Below are positions 52,347-61,952 of a stretch of DNA of 64,000 bases, in pieces. Each line of letters starts with the position of its first letter. Positions within the stretch are counted from its first letter, which is position 1. Source of the DNA: Escherichia phage JY01; the sequence record OR995200.1. One strand, given 5' to 3'. A program made the translations under genes and the position numbers. Under the pieces are notes generated by a model, which did no database searches, was not told the origin of the DNA, and saw only the letters and a program-made list of their open reading frames with translations.

Positions 52347-52523
52347 TTAAGTATTGTAAAACATTCGATGCAATCGTTTATACTGTCGAATCATCTTTTT
52401 AGTAGGACGAGAATAGGTTCCTACGCAAGTGGTCATATGAGGGTCCGTAGAATGTCCTTTAATAAAAAGTTTCCAAACCTTACCGCCATTTAACTTTTCA
52501 GTATAAACCAATTCGGTTTTCAT
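52347..52523 (-). CDS. Small ORF (58 aa) that is a partial duplicate of the upstream gene's 3' end
   Basis: MKTELVYTEKLNGGKVWKLFIKGHSTDPHMTTCVGTYSRPTKKMIRQYKRLHRMFYNT. The last 14 aa and about 45 nt of DNA repeat the end of the 167-aa gene. Confidence 0.35.
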   Translation of the reverse strand: MKTELVYTEKLNGGKVWKLFIKGHSTDPHMTTCVGTYSRPTKKMIRQYKRLHRMFYNT

Positions 52524-52559: not shown

Positions 52560-53063
52560 TCAAGTATTGTAAAACATTTGATGCAATCGCTTATATTGCC
52601 GAATCTTTTGGTCAGAAAAAGAAATTTGAGTTTCAAGCCATTCAATGTACTCTGCGGCAGCTTGCATCAGGTTACCTTCATAGCCATCGTTATTTTCTTG
52701 CGCAGCTAATTTAGCTAATGCGTATGAAATACGTTCACCTTGAAAAGCGGCTTTAGGATTCTGAACATCTTGGCTAGTTCTCTCTACAACTTCTTCAATT
52801 TCGCCATTTTCAACGGATTCAGTATTCCACAAACACCAGTATGTAATTGGCTTATCATAGATGTTAATAATCTTTCCGTCGGAAAGTTCAATTTCAATAA
52901 TTCCAGTATCAGGTTCTATATCATCTTCGCATTCTTTTGCAAGTTCACGAACTTTAAAGACAGTACCTGCACTAAGTTCCGGCCAGTAATTACATAGCCC
53001 TGTATCAACACGATTAATTCTAAACCACTTATCTACTGTAATCATGTCCCATCTCCATATCAA
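52560..53063 (-). CDS. Hypothetical protein (167 aa)
   Basis: ORF upstream of gene 49, ending ...KIRQYKRLHQMFYNT. T4 pin lies near here but identity is not established. Confidence 0.45.
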   Translation of the reverse strand: MIWRWDMITVDKWFRINRVDTGLCNYWPELSAGTVFKVRELAKECEDDIEPDTGIIEIELSDGKIINIYDKPITYWCLWNTESVENGEIEEVVERTSQDVQNPKAAFQGERISYALAKLAAQENNDGYEGNLMQAAAEYIEWLETQISFSDQKIRQYKRLHQMFYNT

Positions 53064-53377: not shown

Positions 53378-53556
53378 TTAGAAATAGACTTTTCACCATT
53401 AGAATAATAAACTTCGAGTTTAGCACGATTATTTTTAATTTGAATAACCTTGGCTGTCATCAAAGTTCCATACCCATAATAAACTGCAACTTCATCACCT
53501 ACATATACCGCGCTTCCGCGGTAATCATGAATATAGTCAGTTCCTTCGAGCATCAT
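53341..53556 (-). CDS. Hypothetical protein (71 aa)
   Basis: ORF directly downstream of nrdC. Confidence 0.4.
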   Translation of the reverse strand: MMLEGTDYIHDYRGSAVYVGDEVAVYYGYGTLMTAKVIQIKNNRAKLEVYYSNGEKSISKWKYGDCMVKLG

Positions 53557-53816
53557 TTAAAATATTCTCGCAGTTGGTCAAATCCACCAATATGACTTCC
53601 ATCAGGAGCAAATACCTGAGGCATTGTCAAGCCGATTTGAGTATCACGACCTAGTTTAGTCAGAAGCTCAGCGATTTTCTCATCATCAAAAACACCTTTT
53701 TCCGGCATAATGTTGATAAATTCAAACGGCTGTTTCTTCACAGTCAAAAGACGTTTTGCATTATCGCAATACACGCATTTATGAATGTTGCTATCATAAC
53801 CATATACTTTAAACAT
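53553..53816 (-). CDS. nrdC: Thioredoxin/glutaredoxin NrdC
   Basis: 87 aa, MFKVYGYDSNIHKCVYCDNAKRLL..., matches recalled T4 NrdC including the CVYC active site. Confidence 0.8.
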   Translation of the reverse strand: MFKVYGYDSNIHKCVYCDNAKRLLTVKKQPFEFINIMPEKGVFDDEKIAELLTKLGRDTQIGLTMPQVFAPDGSHIGGFDQLREYFK

Positions 53817-53817
53817 A

Positions 53818-54060
53818 TTATTCCTTAATTCCTAGTACTTGTTTAAAAGTCTCGTCGTAATCAAGACTTTGGCCCGTTTGTTCTTTATGTTTGTATATAA
53901 TATCACTTACTTCTGATAGCATATTTTTATATGAACGAGTTAAAGCAGATTTAAGCACGCTGTATCTATCAGGAAATTTACCGTGTTCATTATAATAAGC
54001 TATTGCTAATTCACGGACTGCCTTTTCAGCAGCCTCCATATATTCTTTACGCTTGGTCAT
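53818..54060 (-). CDS. Hypothetical protein (80 aa)
   Basis: ORF tightly packed upstream of nrdC. Confidence 0.45.
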
Positions 54061-54062
54061 TT

Positions 54063-54452
54063 TTAATCCAAAATATTATTAGGCATTGGTTGAACACTCA
54101 CAAGTTCTTTAAAGAACTCAGTAGAGTCAGGCAATTTAACCATTTCCGGAGCATGCTTACTGAATTTATGTTTACATTGACGGCATTTATATTCAAGCTC
54201 TGGTTTACGCCAGTTAATCAACTGAACTTGTTCAGTACCGCATTCAGGGCAATTAGGAACGTTTTTAGAAGCTCTTTCACGTCGTTCAACCATAGCCATA
54301 ATAGCATCCCATGCTGGAGGTTTAAAATCTAAATCGTCGCAGCCGTGAATCTTTCCACGCATTTCCATATCATCTTCCTCACCAGCCATAATAATTTTAA
54401 TTAAACTGGAATTACTTGAAGCTGCAATGTCTTCTAATAAACGCTTTTTCAT
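54063..54452 (-). CDS. Zinc-ribbon hypothetical protein (129 aa)
   Basis: C-terminal CPECGTE...CRQCKHKF has four Cys. Confidence 0.45.
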
Positions 54453-55378
54453 TTCAATACCTCAATAGCATTACGTAAACCATTTGCTTTTGCATTAAGA
54501 GCTTTTAACAATTTGGTGTGTTCTGCAATTTGGGCTTCAACTTCAATCAAACGGGCATTGAGATATTCACGTTCTTCACTCAGATTATCAACCTTTTCTA
54601 CTTTAGGCTCTTTTACAACTGTCTTATATGTATTAGGGTTCTTCAGTTTAATTAGAATGCGTGAACTGTATAACATTGAACCATTATCTTCGGTTTCGTC
54701 ATACATTTCCACTACGTCCATAATTTTTAACATCATGCGGAGTTTATAAGACAACGAACGAATAGTTTTGTTGTGCTTATTAATTTCTTTAGCTGTCATG
54801 GTGCCAAGATTACGTGAGTAATAATAAGGAACCTGGATATTAATTAATACTGATGAACCACCTGGCTTGTGTGTTACTTCATCAGCAATAACCCAGTCCT
54901 TAACATGAACTGTATTTGTACGGTCATCGCCCGCGGTAAATAGTTTGCGAGCATGCTTAAAAAGCATATTCACTTGGTCATTGAATTGACAAGCAAATTT
55001 ATCAGCAAATTTAGTTTCAGGAATGGTAGAAAACCAATCAGCCAAATGAGTCTTTTTAACATCATTAACAATAGTAAATTCAACCAAATCGGTTATAGAT
55101 GTCTCAGATTTAATGAAGCTTGGCTTCATAAAGTTTTTAATGTTCTCATGAGCTACAGTAGAAGATAACATACGAGAACGTTTAAACCATTCAAGCAAAT
55201 TTCCTAACGAATGAGAATAAGCATTCTGAGTATCTTTACAGATATGATTTTCCTGCCCAACATATTGAAGAAAATCACGAAGAATATTATTAACTACTGC
55301 TCTGTGCCCTATCTGATAATTACGATGTTTAGTAATAAGACTGTCAAAATAATCAATATAATGTTTACGAGTTTTCAT
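54449..55378 (-). CDS. Coiled-coil-tailed hypothetical protein, paralog 1 of 4
   Basis: 309 aa, starts MKTR. C-terminal about 45 aa is a predicted coiled coil (LSEEREYLNARLIEVEAQIAEHTKLLKALNAKANGL). Confidence 0.5.
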   Translation of the reverse strand: MKTRKHYIDYFDSLITKHRNYQIGHRAVVNNILRDFLQYVGQENHICKDTQNAYSHSLGNLLEWFKRSRMLSSTVAHENIKNFMKPSFIKSETSITDLVEFTIVNDVKKTHLADWFSTIPETKFADKFACQFNDQVNMLFKHARKLFTAGDDRTNTVHVKDWVIADEVTHKPGGSSVLINIQVPYYYSRNLGTMTAKEINKHNKTIRSLSYKLRMMLKIMDVVEMYDETEDNGSMLYSSRILIKLKNPNTYKTVVKEPKVEKVDNLSEEREYLNARLIEVEAQIAEHTKLLKALNAKANGLRNAIEVLK

Positions 55379-55430
55379 ATTCTTCTCACTTGGTTAATGA
55401 TTTATGCTCCAAGCCATCCTTGGCTTTAAA

Positions 55431-56432
55431 TTACTTAATTAACTGTAAAGCTTGTTCAAGACGATCTAGGCGATTAACAGATTCTTCCCAAATCCTTTTA
55501 GCCTGTTCATATTCTTTTTGCGCTTTATTAGAAATTTCTAGAACTTCTTTATAAGCTTTTTCCAGTGCAATAACTTCTGGACGAATTTCTACCGGTTCAG
55601 GTGAATCGTCAAGATTATCCATTAGTTCCTCAAGGGTAGTTTCTTCTTTAGGAGTATTCACAATTTCCTCACATTTTTGTTGGTAAATTTCTTTATCAGT
55701 CGGTGAGTACGCACACTTTACTTCACGAAGGCTAATTATAATTTTATATCCTTCCCAACCGCATATATTCTTAAAAGGATAAGTATGAATATTTTCTACT
55801 GTTTCCATACAAAGTAATGCGGTCTCTAATTGACGAGTTATAGTGCTAGCAATTGAGAAAAATTTATTAATGTTCTTTTGGTTAGTTTCTGGTGTAAAAA
55901 ATCCATAATTCACAAAAATAGCTACTTTATTTTTATCAAGCTCATATTCTTTTACGATAATCATATCAGAAGCTAAAGGATGAATTTGACGATAATCACC
56001 ATAACATAATTTAGAAGCTGATTTTAAAATTTGTCCTTTAAAAAGTCTGAAATTACTAATCCAACGACGAGTAAAAATATTCTCAGGGTCTTCTTTATTA
56101 TTAAGATGATAAGAATTAACATCACCGAACCAATTATATCCTACTACATCTTTGGTTCGTTTAATTTCTTTCCCAAAATTACCAAGAATATCCCGATTAA
56201 CCAAATATGAAAGAAGACGAGACTCTTTAAAGGTTTTCTTGATAACATCTTTATCTACACGGCTAGAAATTTTACGAATTTCATGAATAAATTTAGTAGA
56301 AGAAACAATACTTGCATCAACACTATTGAGCCATTGATTGATAATAGAAAGAACGATATTTTGACCAAACATCGGTATAGCTTTATCATCAATAACGCTA
56401 TTGAATGATTTGATATATTCGTTACGAGTCAT
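55431..56432 (-). CDS. Coiled-coil-tailed hypothetical protein, paralog 2
   Basis: Track ORF trimmed to MTRNEYIKSF... with GAGGAG Shine-Dalgarno (333 aa). Core RRWISNFRLFKGQILKSASKL. C-terminal coiled coil. Confidence 0.5.
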   Translation of the reverse strand: MTRNEYIKSFNSVIDDKAIPMFGQNIVLSIINQWLNSVDASIVSSTKFIHEIRKISSRVDKDVIKKTFKESRLLSYLVNRDILGNFGKEIKRTKDVVGYNWFGDVNSYHLNNKEDPENIFTRRWISNFRLFKGQILKSASKLCYGDYRQIHPLASDMIIVKEYELDKNKVAIFVNYGFFTPETNQKNINKFFSIASTITRQLETALLCMETVENIHTYPFKNICGWEGYKIIISLREVKCAYSPTDKEIYQQKCEEIVNTPKEETTLEELMDNLDDSPEPVEIRPEVIALEKAYKEVLEISNKAQKEYEQAKRIWEESVNRLDRLEQALQLIK

Positions 56433-56459
56433 AATAATCTCCTCAGTAGAAAGTAAGAA

Positions 56460-56491
56460 CATTATACCACATCCTTGTGGCGAAGTAAACT
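56460..56491 (-). promoter_or_regulatory. Early promoter
   Basis: GTTTAC, 17 nt, GTGGTATAATG on the minus strand. Confidence 0.5.
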
Positions 56492-57494
56492 AGTTCAGTG
56501 CATTTAGTGCGTTGTTCAGTTTAGAACGTTGCTTTGTCAGATTTTGAACTCTTGACTGCGCTTGTTCTAGCACCTTTTCAGCTTCTAGCATTTCATTGGT
56601 TGCTTTAACGAGTTCATCATCTACTGCTTTAAGAGACTTCTCAATCGCATCGGCGTGCCATTTTTCTACAGGTTTAAAATTTGAATTTTCAGTAGGAAGA
56701 AAACTCACTTTATTAAGTTTCCATGCATCTGTACTACTTGAACTGTACATCCAACATTTAGGATCGTTGGATGAGCAATTAGTTTGAGGTTCAGGTTTTT
56801 TCTCTTGCGTAACTTCGTCCTTTCTCAAAAAATCGTATTTAAATGAAACGATCATATCAAGTTCATATGTTGTCGTATCTAACTTAAATCGTTCAAAACG
56901 AGGTAAAATCTTAGATTGAACAGCAGAAACAACATCCATATACTTAAATGCTTCTGTCAACTGTGATTTAAGGCATTCACAAATTGAAAGAGAATTTTTT
57001 GTATTAGGTTTAAAGCTAATTCGTGCAGTTCTGTTATTTTCTTTTAATGGTCTTACTTCCATCTGAAGAGTATAACCATCAAATTTCAGATTCTTTAAGT
57101 TAATGTCAGAGCCTTTTAATCGACTAGCTGTGGACAAAATTTGCTTTAATTGTCTACGGAACAGAGCAATAAATCTCCATTCAATACGATAATGATTTGG
57201 ATTGAAAAATCCAGATGATAAATCGACCTTACTTTGACCAACGCCTTGAACAAATAGAGGATTTTTATAATCAATAGTTTTACAGAAATCGGTGAGCTGT
57301 TCACGAGCAGTCATTTGTGTAATATACCCCGCTTTACTAAAATGACGTAACCATTCACTGCTATTCATATATTTAAAGTGAATATCACGATTAACTTTAT
57401 CAGGGTCTAAATTATTTTGGCACAAAAATGTCATAACATCACGAGTATAGCTGGCATTACGAACCATATCTTCAATTTGAGAACGAGTTTTCAT
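56490..57494 (-). CDS. Coiled-coil-tailed hypothetical protein, paralog 3
   Basis: 334 aa, starts MKTR. Core RIEWRFIALFRRQLKQILSTASRLKG. C-terminal coiled coil. Confidence 0.5.
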   Translation of the reverse strand: MKTRSQIEDMVRNASYTRDVMTFLCQNNLDPDKVNRDIHFKYMNSSEWLRHFSKAGYITQMTAREQLTDFCKTIDYKNPLFVQGVGQSKVDLSSGFFNPNHYRIEWRFIALFRRQLKQILSTASRLKGSDINLKNLKFDGYTLQMEVRPLKENNRTARISFKPNTKNSLSICECLKSQLTEAFKYMDVVSAVQSKILPRFERFKLDTTTYELDMIVSFKYDFLRKDEVTQEKKPEPQTNCSSNDPKCWMYSSSSTDAWKLNKVSFLPTENSNFKPVEKWHADAIEKSLKAVDDELVKATNEMLEAEKVLEQAQSRVQNLTKQRSKLNNALNALN

Positions 57495-57502
57495 GGTGTT
57501 CC

Positions 57503-58390
57503 TTAAGATTTAAGTAAATCAACAATTTTAATTAATTTTTCACGCTCAGATTTAGCTTTACTACTCAATCCAGATAGTCTAAAAATTTCATCATCATATT
57601 GTTGAATAGAAATATTCAGCTCTTCAATCTGCTTATTAAAATAATCAATTTGTTCAGAATGTTTTTCGTTACTACGAACTGGTACAGGTTTTGTAGGCAA
57701 TTTAGTTGAACTGGATTCATCCGGGCGATAAATTAAAATACAACTTGAACCAATTGGACATTTTGCACCAGATGAATATTCTAATGTTCCAGATTCTTTT
57801 AAAACTTCAAAAGCTAAACAGAGATGATGACCCATATTGACATAATCAGTAGAGCGAGCTCTGATGTAATAATCATCTCCACGAGTACTAAATTTAAAGC
57901 ATTTAAGGTCTTCTGTATTATTGGTCTTAAAAATCATTTGTTTATCTAGACCTTTAGCTAATCGAGCGCCTAATGCTAATAATCGTCGTTGATTTTCCCA
58001 CAAATCTGCAATCATTTGGTCAAATGATAATTTTGGCATTAGTCGACCATAAAGGTCATATCCTTTATTATAATTACGAAGAATTTCACTCGCATTAATA
58101 CGAGACAATGCTCCAATTTTATTAAGGGCTTTCATGATGCGATTAGATAAACTCATTCCAGATCCGTTTGTTCGCTGTAAATGTTTTTCTAATCCAAATC
58201 CAATATCAACTTTAAATTTATCTAAAATTTCAGCATGAACATCTCTGTCAATAACATTCAAATCCAAAGTTGGGTTAAATCTATGAAAAAATTTATCTGG
58301 CTCTCCACGACGAAGTACAGTCCATTCATTCAATTTTTTATTAACTAAAGATTTAATTACTGTATTGACATTATTAATTACTACTGACAT
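57503..58390 (-). CDS. Coiled-coil-tailed hypothetical protein, paralog 4
   Basis: Trimmed to the ATG with GAGGA Shine-Dalgarno (295 aa). Core DLWENQRRLLALGARLAKG. C-terminal coiled coil. Confidence 0.45.
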   Translation of the reverse strand: MSVVINNVNTVIKSLVNKKLNEWTVLRRGEPDKFFHRFNPTLDLNVIDRDVHAEILDKFKVDIGFGLEKHLQRTNGSGMSLSNRIMKALNKIGALSRINASEILRNYNKGYDLYGRLMPKLSFDQMIADLWENQRRLLALGARLAKGLDKQMIFKTNNTEDLKCFKFSTRGDDYYIRARSTDYVNMGHHLCLAFEVLKESGTLEYSSGAKCPIGSSCILIYRPDESSSTKLPTKPVPVRSNEKHSEQIDYFNKQIEELNISIQQYDDEIFRLSGLSSKAKSEREKLIKIVDLLKS

Positions 58391-58397
58391 ATTTTCC

Positions 58398-58805
58398 TCA
58401 CTCAATTTCAATTTTACTAAATACACAGAATATGATGGAAAAGACTATATAAGCACCGCATACAGATTGAACTAATACCATTCCAAAGAACCAAACGATA
58501 TTATCAAACAATGTCTGTTTTACGTCGAAAGGACGTAAACTTACAGTAATATTATCACCTTTTTCTATTGAAGAATACATCTCTGGGGAAATATATTCAC
58601 TAAATCTATAACCGTCTTTGAGTTCATATACGGCAATAAACGATAAACTAGACCCCTTTCCTTGAGTTCCTGTAATGGTATTAACTACAGTAACATCATA
58701 ATCTTTATAATGCATATAATCATTAATAGCATAATAACCATATGCAATTACTATACATAAACAACATATCAATAAATTCAATCTTTTAATTATCAACTGT
58801 TTCAT
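58398..58805 (-). CDS. Membrane protein (135 aa)
   Basis: N-terminal and C-terminal transmembrane helices around a soluble domain. Confidence 0.5.
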   Translation of the reverse strand: MKQLIIKRLNLLICCLCIVIAYGYYAINDYMHYKDYDVTVVNTITGTQGKGSSLSFIAVYELKDGYRFSEYISPEMYSSIEKGDNITVSLRPFDVKQTLFDNIVWFFGMVLVQSVCGAYIVFSIIFCVFSKIEIE

Positions 58806-58860
58806 AATAATCTCAATTAAAAGGGCTTAGAACCATTATACCATCCTTGGTATAAAGCGG

Positions 58861-59388
58861 TTATGCGAGTACCGTCTTTAACCGTTCTTCAAATTTCCGA
58901 AGAGTGTTCTGGCGTTCAGCTCTTTGCTTTTTGTAAGTTTCAATACGCTCTGAAATGAGAGTGTATCGTTCATTTACTGATTCTTTCATAAAATCAGGAA
59001 TTTCACGAGAAGCTTTAATCTCATCAAATTTATCAATAACAGCTTGCTCTTCAGCAATTAAGTTATCATACATTAAAATATCTTTCTTGATGAACTCAAT
59101 ATCTTCTTGAGTTACACGAGATAATTTAGATGCTTTATCCTTTTTGTACTGTTCGTTAGTATCACGAGACCAGTGTAATGTACGATTTTTATTCGTATTT
59201 TTGTAAATTTCTACAATACCAATTTCATCAATAATAACGATCCAATTCCAACGGGATTTGTAAATTTGTCCTCCATCAACAGTGATTTCACCTCCGATTG
59301 AGATGTCGTTAAAGAACTTGCTTTGTGCTTCAGATTTAAATTTACCATCGTTGTAATTTACCAAGTTGAAAATATCTTTAGCGTTCAT
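58861..59388 (-). CDS. Hypothetical protein (175 aa)
   Basis: Track ORF trimmed to the ATG following the leader GGAGGAACAGAAA. Charged, helical C-terminus. Confidence 0.5.
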   Translation of the reverse strand: MNAKDIFNLVNYNDGKFKSEAQSKFFNDISIGGEITVDGGQIYKSRWNWIVIIDEIGIVEIYKNTNKNRTLHWSRDTNEQYKKDKASKLSRVTQEDIEFIKKDILMYDNLIAEEQAVIDKFDEIKASREIPDFMKESVNERYTLISERIETYKKQRAERQNTLRKFEERLKTVLA

Positions 59389-59413
59389 TTTCTGTTCCTC
59401 CGTAGTTGATAGT

Positions 59414-59447
59414 TGTATAGTACCACAGAGGAACAGTCTTGTAAACA
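59414..59447 (-). promoter_or_regulatory. Early promoter cassette
   Basis: GTTTAC, spacer, TGTGGTACTATACAACTATCAACTACGGAGGAACAG. Confidence 0.5.
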
Positions 59448-59448
59448 A

Positions 59449-59763
59449 CTAAAAGAAACTTCTTTCACAATTTTTTCCACTGAACCAAGCGCTCACTGCT
59501 TTCTTAGTCTCAGGAGCAGTGTTATCCATAAACCATTCAAAGGCAGCCTTTTTATGATTCTGGAGGGCTTCTCGGGCTTTAATCTGCTCACGGTCTATTA
59601 ACACTAACATATGAGCCTTTCTTGTCACCAAGGGCTTCTTATGATTCTTGGAGTATTCCCAGTCATTTGTCCAACGCATTGTCGTTGCGAACTGAAATAC
59701 TGCTTCTTTAATTTTAGTTTCGTAAATTTCACGAGCCTTTGAGTATAACATCATTACCTCCAT
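59449..59763 (-). CDS. Hypothetical protein (104 aa)
   Basis: ORF whose 3' end runs into the promoter cassette. Start uncertain. Confidence 0.35.
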   Translation of the reverse strand: MEVMMLYSKAREIYETKIKEAVFQFATTMRWTNDWEYSKNHKKPLVTRKAHMLVLIDREQIKAREALQNHKKAAFEWFMDNTAPETKKAVSAWFSGKNCERSFF

Positions 59764-59852
59764 TTACCAGTTTAATTCTAGTCATCTTTTTGATGGCAGT
59801 CCATATAATCTATTTCTGAACTGCCTTTTTGTCATAGAAGGCCTCTTATGAA

Positions 59853-60821
59853 TTATTTCAGAAGAGTAACCTCAGCAATTTCTTCCCAACCGTTTTTGTC
59901 GGTCATAATAAAGTCAGCAAGATAAAGAGCAGTACGCAGTGAAACATTGCGTAAACGATTAACATTGACTTTCATCCATGATAATGCTTTATAAGTTTCT
60001 TCATCAGAAAGACCGCGCTTTTGCATCATGTCAGTTGAAAGAATAACATCTTCAACCCTGACCATAATTTCTTCATTAGTGTGAACACCCAAATCCAAAT
60101 AAACTGAGCGGGACACTAATGCTTGTAAATGTGGAGCAAGTTTAGTACCACGGTCTAATTCGCGGTCAATGTCAACGTTTGTGATAAAAACAATCGTTCC
60201 TTTAAATTCAAACTCACGCTCAATGCCTTTTTCTTCTAAGTAAGAAGATGCAGTGCTCCAGCAGACTTTACGGGTCTCTCCAGTGTCCAGAGCGGCTTTT
60301 AGAAGATTAAGAATATCCATATCAGAGAAAACATCCACATCATCAATCAAAAGGACAGAATTCTCTTCACGATTATTCCAAAGCTGCTCATAAAGACCGA
60401 TACCGGAGATTTTACCGTTAATGCTTTTATATTCAATGTATCCAATATCATTTGCTTTATTTAAAGCTTTATCTAAAGAATACGTTTTACCAATACCTGC
60501 TGCACCAGAGATAATTAATGAACGAATGTTTCCGTTAATAATACCATTCGTCATCATTCCCATAACATTAAATCTTTTATTAATGCGGGTTTTCATATCT
60601 TCATACGATTCTTTAACTTCTTCAACTTTTACACCATCATATGAAATGTCTGATTTGTAAACCCAAACACCGCGACGTTTACCGTCAATTTCAACAAAAA
60701 CTTTACCATCTCCTTGTGCATCTACCGGAGCATTATCTGGGAACCATTCGCCTAAGAGCTCAAAAGTTCCAGAGATTTCTTTACCGAAGTAGATACCCTT
60801 ATTGATAGTTACAGTTTTCAT
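59853..60821 (-). CDS. AAA+ family ATPase (322 aa)
   Basis: Walker A SGAAGIGKTYS and Walker B VLLIDDVD. Track ORF trimmed from the TTG in the leader to the ATG. Confidence 0.6.
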   Translation of the reverse strand: MKTVTINKGIYFGKEISGTFELLGEWFPDNAPVDAQGDGKVFVEIDGKRRGVWVYKSDISYDGVKVEEVKESYEDMKTRINKRFNVMGMMTNGIINGNIRSLIISGAAGIGKTYSLDKALNKANDIGYIEYKSINGKISGIGLYEQLWNNREENSVLLIDDVDVFSDMDILNLLKAALDTGETRKVCWSTASSYLEEKGIEREFEFKGTIVFITNVDIDRELDRGTKLAPHLQALVSRSVYLDLGVHTNEEIMVRVEDVILSTDMMQKRGLSDEETYKALSWMKVNVNRLRNVSLRTALYLADFIMTDKNGWEEIAEVTLLK

Positions 60822-60856
60822 TTTATTCTCCAAATCTGTATCAGTAGTTGATAGTT

Positions 60857-60889
60857 GTATAGTACCATAAAGCTTTATGATTGTAAACC
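60857..60889 (-). promoter_or_regulatory. Early promoter cassette
   Basis: GTTTAC, spacer, TATGGTACTATACAACTATCAACTACTGATACAGATTTGGAGAATAAA-ATG. Confidence 0.55.
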
Positions 60890-60907
60890 GTTTTGTGAAA
60901 AATTTTT

Positions 60908-60932
60908 GAAATAAAAAAGGGAGCCCGAAGGC
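60908..60932 (-). terminator. Rho-independent terminator
   Basis: GGGAGCC-UUCG-GGCUCCC hairpin followed by TTTTTTATTT on the minus strand. Confidence 0.6.
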
Positions 60933-60938
60933 TCCCTA

Positions 60939-61952
60939 TCATTTATAATAACTTCGGTGGTTTTCAAGATAGACCTTCTCAAGGAAGTCATCCCAGAAAC
61001 TCATGTCTACTGTTTTAGGCATACCGTTCTTAGAAGCTTCAGTAGATGCTGCTTCTACTTGATCGACCACATCTTCTAAAAACTCTTGAACCGTTTTAAA
61101 TGGATGCTTACCCAACTTCACGTCGAGAATAAATGGAGCGTCTTGAAGTGGATAAATCAAGTCGCCAGTTTTGTAAATTTCCAATAGTTGAAGTCCACCA
61201 CGACAGGCATGACTCAGAGCTTTCCAGTCAATGCCTTCATTGGCTTCGGCCTTACGAGCACGTTCACCATATTCAGCATCTAATTTGTTCAGTGACTGCT
61301 TAAGCTCAATAAGAGAAAGCGTTGTCTGATATTTACGACCCAATACAGTGTAGAACGTTTGTGGACCTGTTTTCTCATGATTATGGAATACCCATTCACA
61401 GAACTCGTTTTCTGGAAGACGATGCTTAATATCTTCAATTTTAGTGCGACGTTGTCCTTGTGTTCCATCTTCTCGGTAGACATTCCGTTGATCAGGAATT
61501 TGATTAACTACTTTCAATACATCACGTAATGCAGCCAAACGAGAACCCTTGACACCGTATTTAGAAGCTTGCTTGCGGACATATCCTAAATAGGATTTCA
61601 TGTTAGTCGTATAAAAACGAGAACGGTTGTCTTGAATAAACTTCCACACATCAGGCAAATCGGATTTAACCACTAGTTCAGGTGGAGTGTGAAGCATATC
61701 CAATGCTACAGTTTCACCATCTGCTGCTAATTTAAAGAAATATTTAAGACTGTATAGTTCATGGTCAATATCATCTTTAGTGTTTTTAGATGATGTGTTG
61801 TTAGTGTTTTTACTCATATGCTCTTTAACATTTCCGATAAGAATATCGCGAGCACGAGGAACAAAGATTTCTTTAAAATCTACATCAGATTCTGGAGTAG
61901 AAGTTCCATAAAGATGACTACCAAAATAGCTTTTCATTACTGTTTTCATCAT
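60939..61952 (-). CDS. Nucleotidyltransferase-motif protein (pol-beta / MNT-type), 337 aa
   Basis: N-terminal FGSHLYGTSTPESDVDF fits the GS-x(9-13)-DxD nucleotidyltransferase signature. The rest of the protein is not recognised. Confidence 0.5.
   Translation of the reverse strand: MMKTVMKSYFGSHLYGTSTPESDVDFKEIFVPRARDILIGNVKEHMSKNTNNTSSKNTKDDIDHELYSLKYFFKLAADGETVALDMLHTPPELVVKSDLPDVWKFIQDNRSRFYTTNMKSYLGYVRKQASKYGVKGSRLAALRDVLKVVNQIPDQRNVYREDGTQGQRRTKIEDIKHRLPENEFCEWVFHNHEKTGPQTFYTVLGRKYQTTLSLIELKQSLNKLDAEYGERARKAEANEGIDWKALSHACRGGLQLLEIYKTGDLIYPLQDAPFILDVKLGKHPFKTVQEFLEDVVDQVEAASTEASKNGMPKTVDMSFWDDFLEKVYLENHRSYYK

What the first reader, a model, noticed from the sequence alone, without database searches (positions are those of the whole stretch)
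54449..58805. Tandem array of four divergent paralogs with C-terminal coiled coils, followed by a membrane protein
Four consecutive genes of 295-333 aa share a basic N-terminus (three start MKTR/MTR), a conserved core of the form W..F..Q.L..AS(R/K)L.G, and a C-terminal predicted coiled coil of about 45 aa, while the rest has diverged. They are followed by a 135-aa protein with two transmembrane helices, and a promoter sits inside the array. Tandem diversifying paralogs ending in oligomerisation-type tails are typical of host-interaction or anti-defence families. I know of no assigned function for this block.
Basis: partly seen in the sequence, partly recalled or inferred. Interest (0 to 1): 0.65.

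Follow-up and report, generated by a model that had tools for sequence, protein, structure and literature searches.

The report
T4-type nrdC.3–nrdC.6 anti-defence paralog array
The block is the nrdC.3–nrdC.7 stretch of a T4-type phage: four diverged copies of one ancestral gene, one of which (nrdC.5) is already known in T4 to switch off the bacterial Dsr1 immune protein, so the other three are good but untested candidates for further immune inhibitors.

Summary
Four adjacent minus-strand genes (309, 333, 334 and 295 aa) share one build: helical N-terminus, motif helix, β-β-α-β-β core, disordered linker, C-terminal coiled coil. A 135-aa two-TM protein lies beside them, and a T4-type early promoter sits inside the array.

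They are nrdC.3, nrdC.4, nrdC.5, nrdC.6 and nrdC.7 of a Tequatrovirus that is not T4 itself.

Paralogy is supported at three levels:
- nrdC.3/nrdC.4 are clear homologs (hhalign 98.6%).
- nrdC.3+4 versus nrdC.5 is probable (92%).
- nrdC.6 joins only through predicted structure (reciprocal Foldseek hits) and through single-copy bridging proteins at the same locus in Enterobacter and Klebsiella phages.

The ancestral state looks like one copy, expanded to three or four in E. coli T-even genera.

T4 nrdC.5 restores infection on Dsr1-carrying E. coli (Srikant et al., eLife 2022). Neighbouring genes gp49.2 and nrdC.1 inhibit OLD and Septu.

No catalytic residues are conserved, and no known fold or cellular homolog was found. 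The likeliest mechanism is therefore early-made, oligomeric, non-enzymatic binders of host defence proteins. That is shown genetically for nrdC.5 only and inferred for the rest. This is a useful lead, not a new kind of system.

The parts
54449..55378 (-). nrdC.3 (309 aa), paralog 1. T4 Y04O/P-type protein with a C-terminal coiled coil at 271-308.
   Evidence: ORF. Named from the synteny of T4 U76612 and RB51. phrog_1435 at 9e-116. hhalign to the NrdC.4 family 98.6%, E 1e-15. Only about 60% aa identity to the T4/RB51 allele, with dS about 1.
55431..56432 (-). nrdC.4 (333 aa), paralog 2. Coiled coil at 286-332.
   Evidence: phrog_1435, 5.6e-169. Homologs carry PF26897, Phage_T4_Y04OP. GAGGA lies 8 nt before the ATG. 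hhalign to the NrdC.5 family 84%, E 8e-6.
56461..56489 (-). Early sigma-70-type promoter inside the array (TTTACT-17-TATAAT with an upstream TG), equivalent to T4 P50.0. It drives nrdC.4, nrdC.3 and the genes downstream.
   Evidence: Annotated as early promoter 50.0 at the same place in T4 record U76612.
56490..57494 (-). nrdC.5 (334 aa), paralog 3. DUF7235; ortholog of the T4 anti-Dsr1 gene. Core at 104-218, disordered linker at 223-275, coiled coil at 278-333.
   Evidence: Pfam PF23882 at 369.8 bits against a cut-off of 30. 92% aa identity to T4 NrdC.5 at the same position. AF2 model with pLDDT 70.6. Function from PMC9391042.
57503..58390 (-). nrdC.6 (295 aa), paralog 4 and the most divergent. 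Same order of structural elements; C-terminal helical hairpin at 242-294.
   Evidence: phrog_2257. Homologs carry PF26899. AF2 model with pLDDT 78.3. Foldseek links to NrdC.5. Bridging protein IME523 matches at 94%, E 1e-7. SD GAGGA before the ATG.
58398..58805 (-). nrdC.7 (135 aa), a two-TM membrane protein transcribed just upstream of nrdC.6. It is a neighbour, not a demonstrated functional partner.
   Evidence: Hydropathy. phrog_2547. Absent from the arrays of MM02, QL01 and P479.
59417..59445 (-). Promoter upstream of nrdC.8 (TTTACA-17-TACTAT). It probably drives nrdC.8-nrdC.7-nrdC.6-nrdC.5.
   Evidence: -35/-10 signals are annotated at the same place in T4 U76612. Gaps of only 7-8 nt separate nrdC.7/nrdC.6 and nrdC.6/nrdC.5.

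Best explanation
The block is the nrdC.3-nrdC.7 part of the non-essential early region of a Tequatrovirus. nrdC.3, nrdC.4, nrdC.5 and nrdC.6 descend by tandem duplication from a single gene. That gene still exists as one copy at the same locus in other Straboviridae genera.

Each paralog encodes a variable N-terminal helical region, a conserved motif helix plus a beta-beta-alpha-beta-beta core, a disordered linker, and a C-terminal coiled coil that most likely makes the protein a dimer or higher oligomer. No polar or catalytic residue is conserved across the families, so the proteins most likely act by binding rather than by catalysis.

The T4 ortholog of nrdC.5 neutralises the SIR2-type NADase defence protein Dsr1 (shown by others, genetically). 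I infer that NrdC.5 is made early and binds Dsr1, either its TPR sensor or its SIR2 effector. Dsr1 would then already be blocked when its trigger, the late major capsid protein, appears.

I also infer that the other three paralogs are inhibitors of other host defence proteins or of variant Dsr1-like sensors. Steps shown: gene structure, paralogy, synteny, and the anti-Dsr1 phenotype of T4 nrdC.5. Steps inferred: direct binding, oligomerisation, timing logic, and an anti-defence role for nrdC.3, nrdC.4 and nrdC.6.
For: Identity and synteny.

Paralogy:
- hhalign C3-C4 98.6%, C3+4-C5 92%, controls negative.
- BLAST bridge between the Gaprivervirus C5-like protein P0236 and the Mosigvirus C4-like protein, E 2.6e-8.
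- Independent AF2 models with the same order of elements.
- Reciprocal Foldseek: the NrdC.5 model hits JS10 NrdC.6 at E 3.7e-5, and the two models share 7 hits at E<1e-3.
- Bridging single-copy proteins IME523, KpV477 and P0237.

Function of nrdC.5: PMC9391042.

Anti-defence neighbours.

Dsr1 trigger is the major capsid protein, sensed by a TPR domain: preprint PMC12803255.

Non-enzymatic character:
- Invariant positions across C3/C4/C5 are M1, T3, R4, F70, A123, M186 and V189.
- No Pfam, NCBIfam, PADLOC or PDB relatives.

Narrow, phage-only distribution: 15 hits in 1.84 billion representatives.

Copy number varies between genera: 4, 3, 3, 1.

nrdC.3 has undergone allele replacement.

Within-genus variation in NrdC.5 is concentrated at residues 1-60 and 180-270.
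Against: - Only nrdC.5 has any functional data, and those are for the T4 allele, which is 92% identical to this one.
- No binding or biochemical data exist.
- nrdC.6 is under strong purifying selection within Tequatrovirus (dN/dS 0.05-0.08), which is unlike a typical arms-race gene.
- Direct sequence similarity of NrdC.6 to the others is not significant. hhalign gives 24% at best, and the exhaustive profile search retrieved no NrdC.6-family member.
- Foldseek TM-scores are low (0.2-0.5) because of flexible domain arrangement. I could not superpose the cores alone.
- The NrdC.5 model is only moderately confident (pLDDT 70.6) and was built on an alignment that mixes paralogs.
- Three of the four proteins are strongly basic overall (+9 to +11). 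That would also fit nucleic-acid binding.
Confidence: 0.6

Rival explanations
1. Only NrdC.5 is an anti-defence protein. The other paralogs have drifted to different early-infection roles such as host takeover or nucleic-acid/nucleoid binding, or are partly redundant.
For: NrdC.3, NrdC.5 and NrdC.6 carry net charges of +9, +11 and +9. NrdC.6 is very conserved. The eLife study complemented with nrdC.5 alone and says nothing about the others. There is a weak, sub-threshold resemblance of NrdC.3 residues 30-86 to the N-terminal domain of XerC/D recombinases (E 0.003, 17 bits against a cut-off of 279).
Against: No significant match to any DNA/RNA-binding family. Variable copy number, allele swapping and location among proven anti-defence genes fit accessory counter-defence better.
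Confidence: 0.25
2. NrdC.5 counteracts Dsr1 indirectly rather than by binding it. For example, it could mask or chaperone the capsid-protein trigger, or alter host physiology or NAD+ supply.
Against: NrdC.5 is an early product while gp23 is late and extremely abundant, so stoichiometric masking is implausible. There are no enzyme motifs for NAD+ metabolism. The known precedent, DSAD1 against DSR2, acts by direct binding (abstracts).
Confidence: 0.2
3. NrdC.6 is not a true paralog. It only shares a convergent helical-plus-coiled-coil architecture with NrdC.3/4/5.
Confidence: 0.1
4. The membrane protein NrdC.7 and the paralogs form one functional module, for example membrane-anchored inhibitors or a superinfection-exclusion device.
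For: nrdC.7, nrdC.6 and nrdC.5 are spaced 7-8 nt apart and probably co-transcribed. In Dhakavirus and Gaprivervirus a different 71-aa two-TM protein sits between the C6-like and C5-like genes.
Against: nrdC.7 is absent in Mosigvirus, Dhakavirus and Gaprivervirus arrays, and there is no membrane gene next to the single-copy relatives. T4 nrdC.5 alone, expressed from a plasmid, restored infection. The paralogs have no hydrophobic segment (max KD19 <=1.15).
Confidence: 0.1

Closest known systems
T4 NrdC.5 (DUF7235, PF23882), anti-Dsr1 factor (Srikant, Guegler & Laub, eLife 2022)
   Same: The third gene (56490-57494) is its positional ortholog: 92% aa identity, full-length Pfam match, the same neighbours and the same promoter layout.
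   Different: This allele differs mainly at residues 1-60 and in the linker at 180-270, and its activity is untested. The other three genes are paralogs of it, not orthologs. The mechanism is unknown even for T4.
DSAD1, the SPbeta-type phage inhibitor of DSR2 (SIR2 NADase)
   Same: Analogous role. It is a phage protein that blocks a SIR2-domain abortive-infection NADase whose sensor recognises a phage structural protein (abstracts listed).
   Different: No sequence relationship: profile searches against all PDB chains gave 0 hits. The architecture, target (Dsr1 with a TPR sensor, against DSR2) and phage lineage all differ. This is a functional analogy only.
T4 anti-defence islands and neighbouring inhibitors (gp49.2 anti-OLD, NrdC.1 anti-Septu; dmd-tifA-adfA anti-TA island)
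   Same: Small, non-essential early genes clustered in hyperplastic regions. They are variable between T-even phages, and each is directed at one host defence.
   Different: Those inhibitors are unrelated single genes of 50-130 aa. Here a roughly 300-aa protein family has expanded in tandem to four copies.
Pfam Phage_T4_Y04OP (PF26897) and PF26899 (NrdC.6 family)
   Same: NrdC.3/NrdC.4 homologs carry PF26897 and NrdC.6 homologs carry PF26899.
   Different: These are families of unknown function. My evidence joins them with DUF7235 into one superfamily, a relationship I did not find recorded.

Membership tests
DUF7235 / T4 NrdC.5 (anti-Dsr1) | Full-length match to Pfam PF23882 above the gathering score | tested here: met
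   The protein at 56490-57494 scores 369.8 bits (cut-off 30), E 1.6e-110, covering 1-334 of the protein and 1-307 of the 307-position model.
DUF7235 / T4 NrdC.5 (anti-Dsr1) | Orthologous position between nrdC.6 and nrdC.4, with the early promoter immediately downstream | tested here: met
   Same gene order and promoter as T4 U76612 and RB51. 92% aa identity to T4.
DUF7235 / T4 NrdC.5 (anti-Dsr1) | Restores phage plating on cells expressing Dsr1 | not testable with these tools
   Shown only for the T4 allele in PMC9391042. It needs a plaque assay with this allele.
Phage_T4_Y04OP (PF26897), NrdC.3/NrdC.4 | Significant profile match to the family | tested here: met
   The local Pfam copy lacks the model, so one search gave no hit. 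All 63 NrdC.4 homologs carry PF26897 in precomputed annotation. Both proteins match phrog_1435 (9e-116 and 5.6e-169). hhalign C3-C4 is 98.6%.
Single NrdC.3-6 superfamily (proposed here) | Significant sequence-profile similarity of every member to the rest | tested here: inconclusive
   Met for C3-C4 and for C3+4-C5 (92%). Not met directly for C6 (<=24%). Met transitively through IME523, KpV477 and P0237.
Single NrdC.3-6 superfamily (proposed here) | Shared fold and order of secondary-structure elements | tested here: met
   AF2 models. Reciprocal Foldseek with 7 shared targets, and NrdC.5 to JS10 NrdC.6 at E 3.7e-5. Caveats: these are predicted structures, the TM-scores are low (0.2-0.5), and the cores were not superposed alone.
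C-terminal coiled-coil oligomerisation domain | Heptad periodicity in a long uninterrupted helix | tested here: met
   A home-made heptad score finds a C-terminal segment in all four. AF2 predicts helices at 278-333 and 242-294. The oligomeric state itself was not tested.
DSAD1-type anti-DSR inhibitors | Sequence or fold relationship to DSAD1 | tested here: not met
Thioredoxin/glutaredoxin (the label many GenBank records give these genes) | Thioredoxin fold or CxxC motif; Pfam thioredoxin or glutaredoxin match | tested here: not met
   No such Pfam or NCBIfam hit for any of the five proteins. The predicted structures are not thioredoxin-like. The label spread from the neighbouring nrdC gene.

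The most novel reading that the evidence does not exclude
The four paralogs are a modular, expandable inhibitor family. The conserved core and coiled coil would provide a common oligomeric scaffold, possibly allowing hetero-oligomers through the homologous C-terminal helices. The variable N-terminal region and linker of each copy would be tuned to cap a different host immune sensor, for example different TPR/Avs-type receptors of phage structural proteins. On this reading, copy-number expansion from one to four in E. coli T-even phages tracks the breadth of such sensors in the host population.
Probability: 0.2. Interest if true: 0.7.

Novelty: new member of a known kind. Interest (0 to 1): 0.45.

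Why it matters
Most T4-type early genes still have no known function, and counter-defence genes are being found one at a time. The one characterised anti-Dsr1 gene turns out to belong to a four-copy family derived from a single ancestral gene. That immediately nominates three conserved proteins (NrdC.3, NrdC.4, NrdC.6), and their single-copy relatives in Klebsiella, Enterobacter, Acinetobacter, Erwinia and Aeromonas phages, as candidates for new immune inhibitors.

It also gives a domain map to guide mechanistic work on how Dsr1 is blocked: a variable N-terminus and linker against an invariant core and coiled coil. Finally, it flags a widespread mis-annotation of these genes as "thioredoxin", which has already misled at least one paper.

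Tried and rejected
1. My first gene numbering was off by one because I skipped nrdC.1. I corrected it against T4 U76612 and RB51. This matters because the characterised gene is the third of the four, not the second.
2. Pairwise BLASTP among the four finds only NrdC.3-NrdC.4, so it cannot settle paralogy.
3. Pfam, NCBIfam and PADLOC give nothing beyond DUF7235. Sub-threshold hits (PHL domain, XerC/D N-terminus, BrxC, PgrA, DUF4164) were rejected as coiled-coil or compositional noise.
4. Profile searches against PDB sequences gave 0 hits.
6. Weak Foldseek hits of the NrdC.5 model to tail completion/terminator proteins (E 0.02-0.05) were considered as a possible "structural-protein mimic" lead. 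I rejected them as too weak.
7. The exhaustive HMM search with the coiled-coil-free C3/4/5 core profile found only 15 proteins, none from the NrdC.6 family or from cellular genomes.
8. The IMG/VR pattern scan with the NrdC.6 alignment recovered only the same three genera.
9. An HMM scan of all 367 ORFs of the window found no further paralog.
10. I looked for overall positive selection and found none (dN/dS <=0.38).
11. The Acinetobacter phage MD-2021a locus showed no member at the equivalent place. The 335-aa gene there is the NrdC.10 ATPase.
Full report
WHAT IS THERE

The window is the early, leftward-transcribed region of a T4-type phage of the genus Tequatrovirus. The 4.36-kb finding matches 655 phage records, the best at 96.4% nucleotide identity. 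The flanking ORFs are endonuclease VII, Pin, NrdC glutaredoxin, an AAA-type ATPase and an RlaP-type nucleotidyltransferase.

Comparison with the annotated T4 record U76612 and with RB51 gives the names:
- nrdC.3: 54449-55378
- nrdC.4: 55431-56432
- nrdC.5: 56490-57494
- nrdC.6: 57503-58390
- nrdC.7: 58398-58805

I first mis-numbered them by one and corrected this.

The phage is not T4 itself. NrdC.5 is 92% identical to the T4 protein and NrdC.3 only 61%.

CHECK OF THE OBSERVATION

Starts. SD-like purine-rich sequences support the nrdC.4 (GAGGA), nrdC.5 (AAGGA) and nrdC.6 (GAGGA) starts; the nrdC.3 site (GAGAAG) is weaker. NrdC.3 and NrdC.5 begin MKTR, and NrdC.4 begins MTR.

Coiled coils. All four end in a heptad-like segment of 38-56 residues. 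AlphaFold predicts long C-terminal helices for the two proteins I modelled.

Membrane protein. NrdC.7 has two hydrophobic segments.

Promoter. A T4-type early promoter (TTTACT-17-TATAAT) fills the gap between nrdC.5 and nrdC.4. It coincides with the promoter annotated as P50.0 in T4. The ATG at 56462 overlaps its -10 box, so the 333-aa reading of nrdC.4 is the right one.

- The N-termini are not uniformly basic.
- In the direction of transcription the membrane gene comes before the array, not after it.

ARE THE FOUR REALLY PARALOGS?

Pairwise BLASTP detects only NrdC.3-NrdC.4. I therefore built family alignments from database homologs and from related phage loci (loci L001-L006). Profile-profile comparison gave:

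| Comparison | hhalign probability | E or P |
|---|---|---|
| NrdC.3 vs NrdC.4 | 98.6% | E 1e-15 |
| NrdC.3+4 vs NrdC.5 | 92% | E 7e-7 |
| NrdC.3+4 vs NrdC.5, last 60 residues removed | 77% | E 2e-5 |
| NrdC.3+4 vs NrdC.6 | 24% | P 8e-4, colinear |
| Controls (NrdC.8, NrdC.10) | - | P 0.06-0.67 |

A Gaprivervirus-type NrdC.5-like protein (P0236) hits a Mosigvirus NrdC.4-like protein by plain BLAST at E 2.6e-8.

For NrdC.6 the decisive evidence is structural and transitive.

Structural evidence. I made independent AlphaFold models of NrdC.5 (its alignment held no NrdC.6 sequences; pLDDT 70.6) and of NrdC.6 (pLDDT 78.3). Both have the same order of elements: an N-terminal helical region, the motif helix, beta-beta-alpha-beta-beta, a disordered linker and a long C-terminal helix.
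- Foldseek of the NrdC.5 model against viral predicted structures hits NrdC.6 of phage JS10 (E 3.7e-5, probability 1.0).
- The two models share seven hits at E<1e-3. All are uncharacterised proteins of about 300-350 aa from T4-like phages of Acinetobacter, Klebsiella, Serratia, Citrobacter and Yersinia.

Transitive evidence. Single-copy proteins sit at the same locus in Enterobacter phage IME523, Klebsiella phage KpV477 and a metagenomic T4-like contig (P0237). They bridge the families as follows.
- IME523 matches the NrdC.6 profile at 94% (E 1e-7).
- KpV477 matches the NrdC.3/4 profile at 92%.
- Control pairs with NrdC.10/NrdC.11 score at most 1.8.

I conclude that all four belong to one superfamily. 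NrdC.6 is the least certain member.

EVOLUTIONARY PATTERN

The family is extremely narrow. A coiled-coil-free profile of NrdC.3/4/5 found only 15 proteins among 1.84 billion cluster representatives, all of T4-like phage origin.

Copy number varies by genus:
- Tequatrovirus: four.
- Mosigvirus: three (no NrdC.5).
- Dhakavirus and Gaprivervirus: three (no NrdC.3).
- Kanagawavirus, Jiaodavirus and the metagenomic phage: one.

Within Tequatrovirus almost every genome has the array. About 494-501 records carry close NrdC.5/NrdC.6 homologs, against about 506 records with a close gp49.

Divergence is uneven:
- nrdC.3 exists as deeply diverged alleles (about 60% identity, dS about 1), which indicates mosaic replacement.
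- nrdC.5 is moderately variable (dN/dS 0.15-0.24).
- nrdC.6 is strongly conserved (dN/dS 0.05-0.08).

In NrdC.5 the variation lies at residues 1-60 and 180-270, while the core at 60-180 is nearly invariant.

WHAT IT DOES

The literature search changes the picture. Srikant, Guegler and Laub (eLife 2022, PMC9391042) found that an evolved T4 deletion clone no longer plates on ECOR17 because of the SIR2-domain defence protein Dsr1. Expressing T4 nrdC.5 from a plasmid restores infection of MG1655 carrying dsr1. The third gene of this array is the ortholog of that gene.

Nearby genes also have anti-defence roles:
- gp49.2 inhibits OLD (PMC13096335).
- nrdC.1 inhibits Septu (HIDEN-SEQ preprint).

A 2026 preprint reports that Dsr1 senses phage major capsid protein through a TPR sensor shared with Avs7 (PMC12803255).

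I found no functional report for nrdC.3, nrdC.4, nrdC.6 or nrdC.7.

MECHANISM (INFERRED)

The positions invariant across NrdC.3/4/5 are M, T, R, F, A, M and V, which look structural rather than catalytic. No enzyme family, defence family or solved structure matches.

The proteins are made from early promoters and end in coiled coils. The most economical reading is that they are oligomeric, stoichiometric binders of host defence proteins.

NrdC.5 would occupy Dsr1 before the late capsid trigger appears. This is analogous in logic, but not related in sequence, to DSAD1 acting on DSR2. The other paralogs plausibly target other sensors. This last step is inference only, and the strong conservation of NrdC.6 and the basic charge of three members keep other roles open.

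VERDICT

The block is a known T4-family locus with one published function, so it is not a new kind of system.

What is new here, as far as I could find, has three parts:
- DUF7235 (NrdC.5), Phage_T4_Y04OP (NrdC.3/4) and the NrdC.6 family join into one superfamily.
- The single-copy ancestral state is identified.
- There is a domain-level map of where variation lies.

Interest is moderate (0.45): a concrete, testable lead for three new candidate immune inhibitors.

Noticed in passing
window 53553-61952; GenBank records: Many GenBank records label nrdC.1 to nrdC.11, including all four paralogs, as 'thioredoxin'. This is evidently propagated from the neighbouring nrdC gene, since none of the five proteins tested has a thioredoxin match. 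A 2026 paper (PMC13275509) even treats nrdC.8 as a nucleotide reductase.
   Followed up: partly
window 54063-55378 (nrdC.2 3' part and nrdC.3): Mosaic allele replacement. NrdC.3 is about 60% identical to both T4 and RB51 (dS 0.85-1.0). NrdC.2 is 77% identical to T4 (and 129 aa against 104 aa) but 99% identical to RB51. Flanking genes are 96-100% identical. The recombination boundaries therefore differ between lineages.
   Followed up: partly
proteins P0120 and P0122: Natural rearrangements inside the array. P0120 is an in-frame deletion fusion of NrdC.5 (about residues 144-265) to NrdC.3 (from about residue 137), which removes nrdC.4. P0122 (Shigella phage Sf25) is NrdC.6 with an internal tandem duplication of about 83 aa.
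   Followed up: no
L003:5763-5978 (phage P479) and L004:5736-5951 (phage QL01): In Gaprivervirus and Dhakavirus a 71-aa protein with two hydrophobic segments sits between the NrdC.6-like and NrdC.5-like genes, although NrdC.7 itself is absent. So a small membrane protein accompanies the array in several genera.
   Followed up: no
window 58835-58858 (minus strand), between nrdC.8 and nrdC.7: GCTTTA, then 12 nt, then TATAAT. This resembles a T4 MotA-dependent middle promoter (my recollection of the consensus is TGCTTtA about 12 nt upstream of the -10). It would give nrdC.7-nrdC.5 a second, middle-mode promoter.
   Followed up: no
window 55414-55423 and 58841-58850 (minus strand); variant at about 56466-56479: The only two exact copies of CCAAGGATGG in the 64-kb window lie in intergenic spacers of this array, upstream of nrdC.3 and of nrdC.7. 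The P50.0 promoter carries the variant CCACAAGGATGTGG. The spacer upstream of nrdC.3 looks like a decayed copy of the promoter region, which would fit duplication of a promoter-plus-gene unit. With one mismatch allowed, the count is not above chance.
   Followed up: partly
window 58861-59388 (nrdC.8): NrdC.8 (175 aa) also ends in a heptad-like segment (136-174). It shows no profile similarity to the four paralogs.
   Followed up: partly
L021:4843-5613, L022:4428-5216, L007:2898-3686: A conserved 256-262-aa protein of unknown function lies immediately upstream of the single-copy family member in Kanagawavirus, Jiaodavirus and the metagenomic T4-like contig. It is unrelated to the family by hhalign.
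   Followed up: partly
window 52347-52523 and 52560-53063: Two adjacent minus-strand ORFs (58 aa and 167 aa, at the positions of 49.1 and pin) end in nearly the same 14 residues, IRQYKRLH(R/Q)MFYNT. This suggests a short duplicated 3' segment.
   Followed up: no
L002:1938-2657 (phage RB51): RB51 carries a seg-like homing endonuclease gene between nrdC.10 and nrdC.9. It is absent from the window and from T4, another sign of the plasticity of this region.
   Followed up: no
window 59853-60821 (nrdC.10) and 60939-61952 (nrdC.11): NrdC.10 gives sub-threshold AAA/STAND-type NTPase matches. NrdC.11 matches the RlaP (RNA-repair-pathway) nucleotidyltransferase family at 9e-11. Both are conserved far more widely among Straboviridae than the paralog array, for example in the Acinetobacter phage locus L023.
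   Followed up: no
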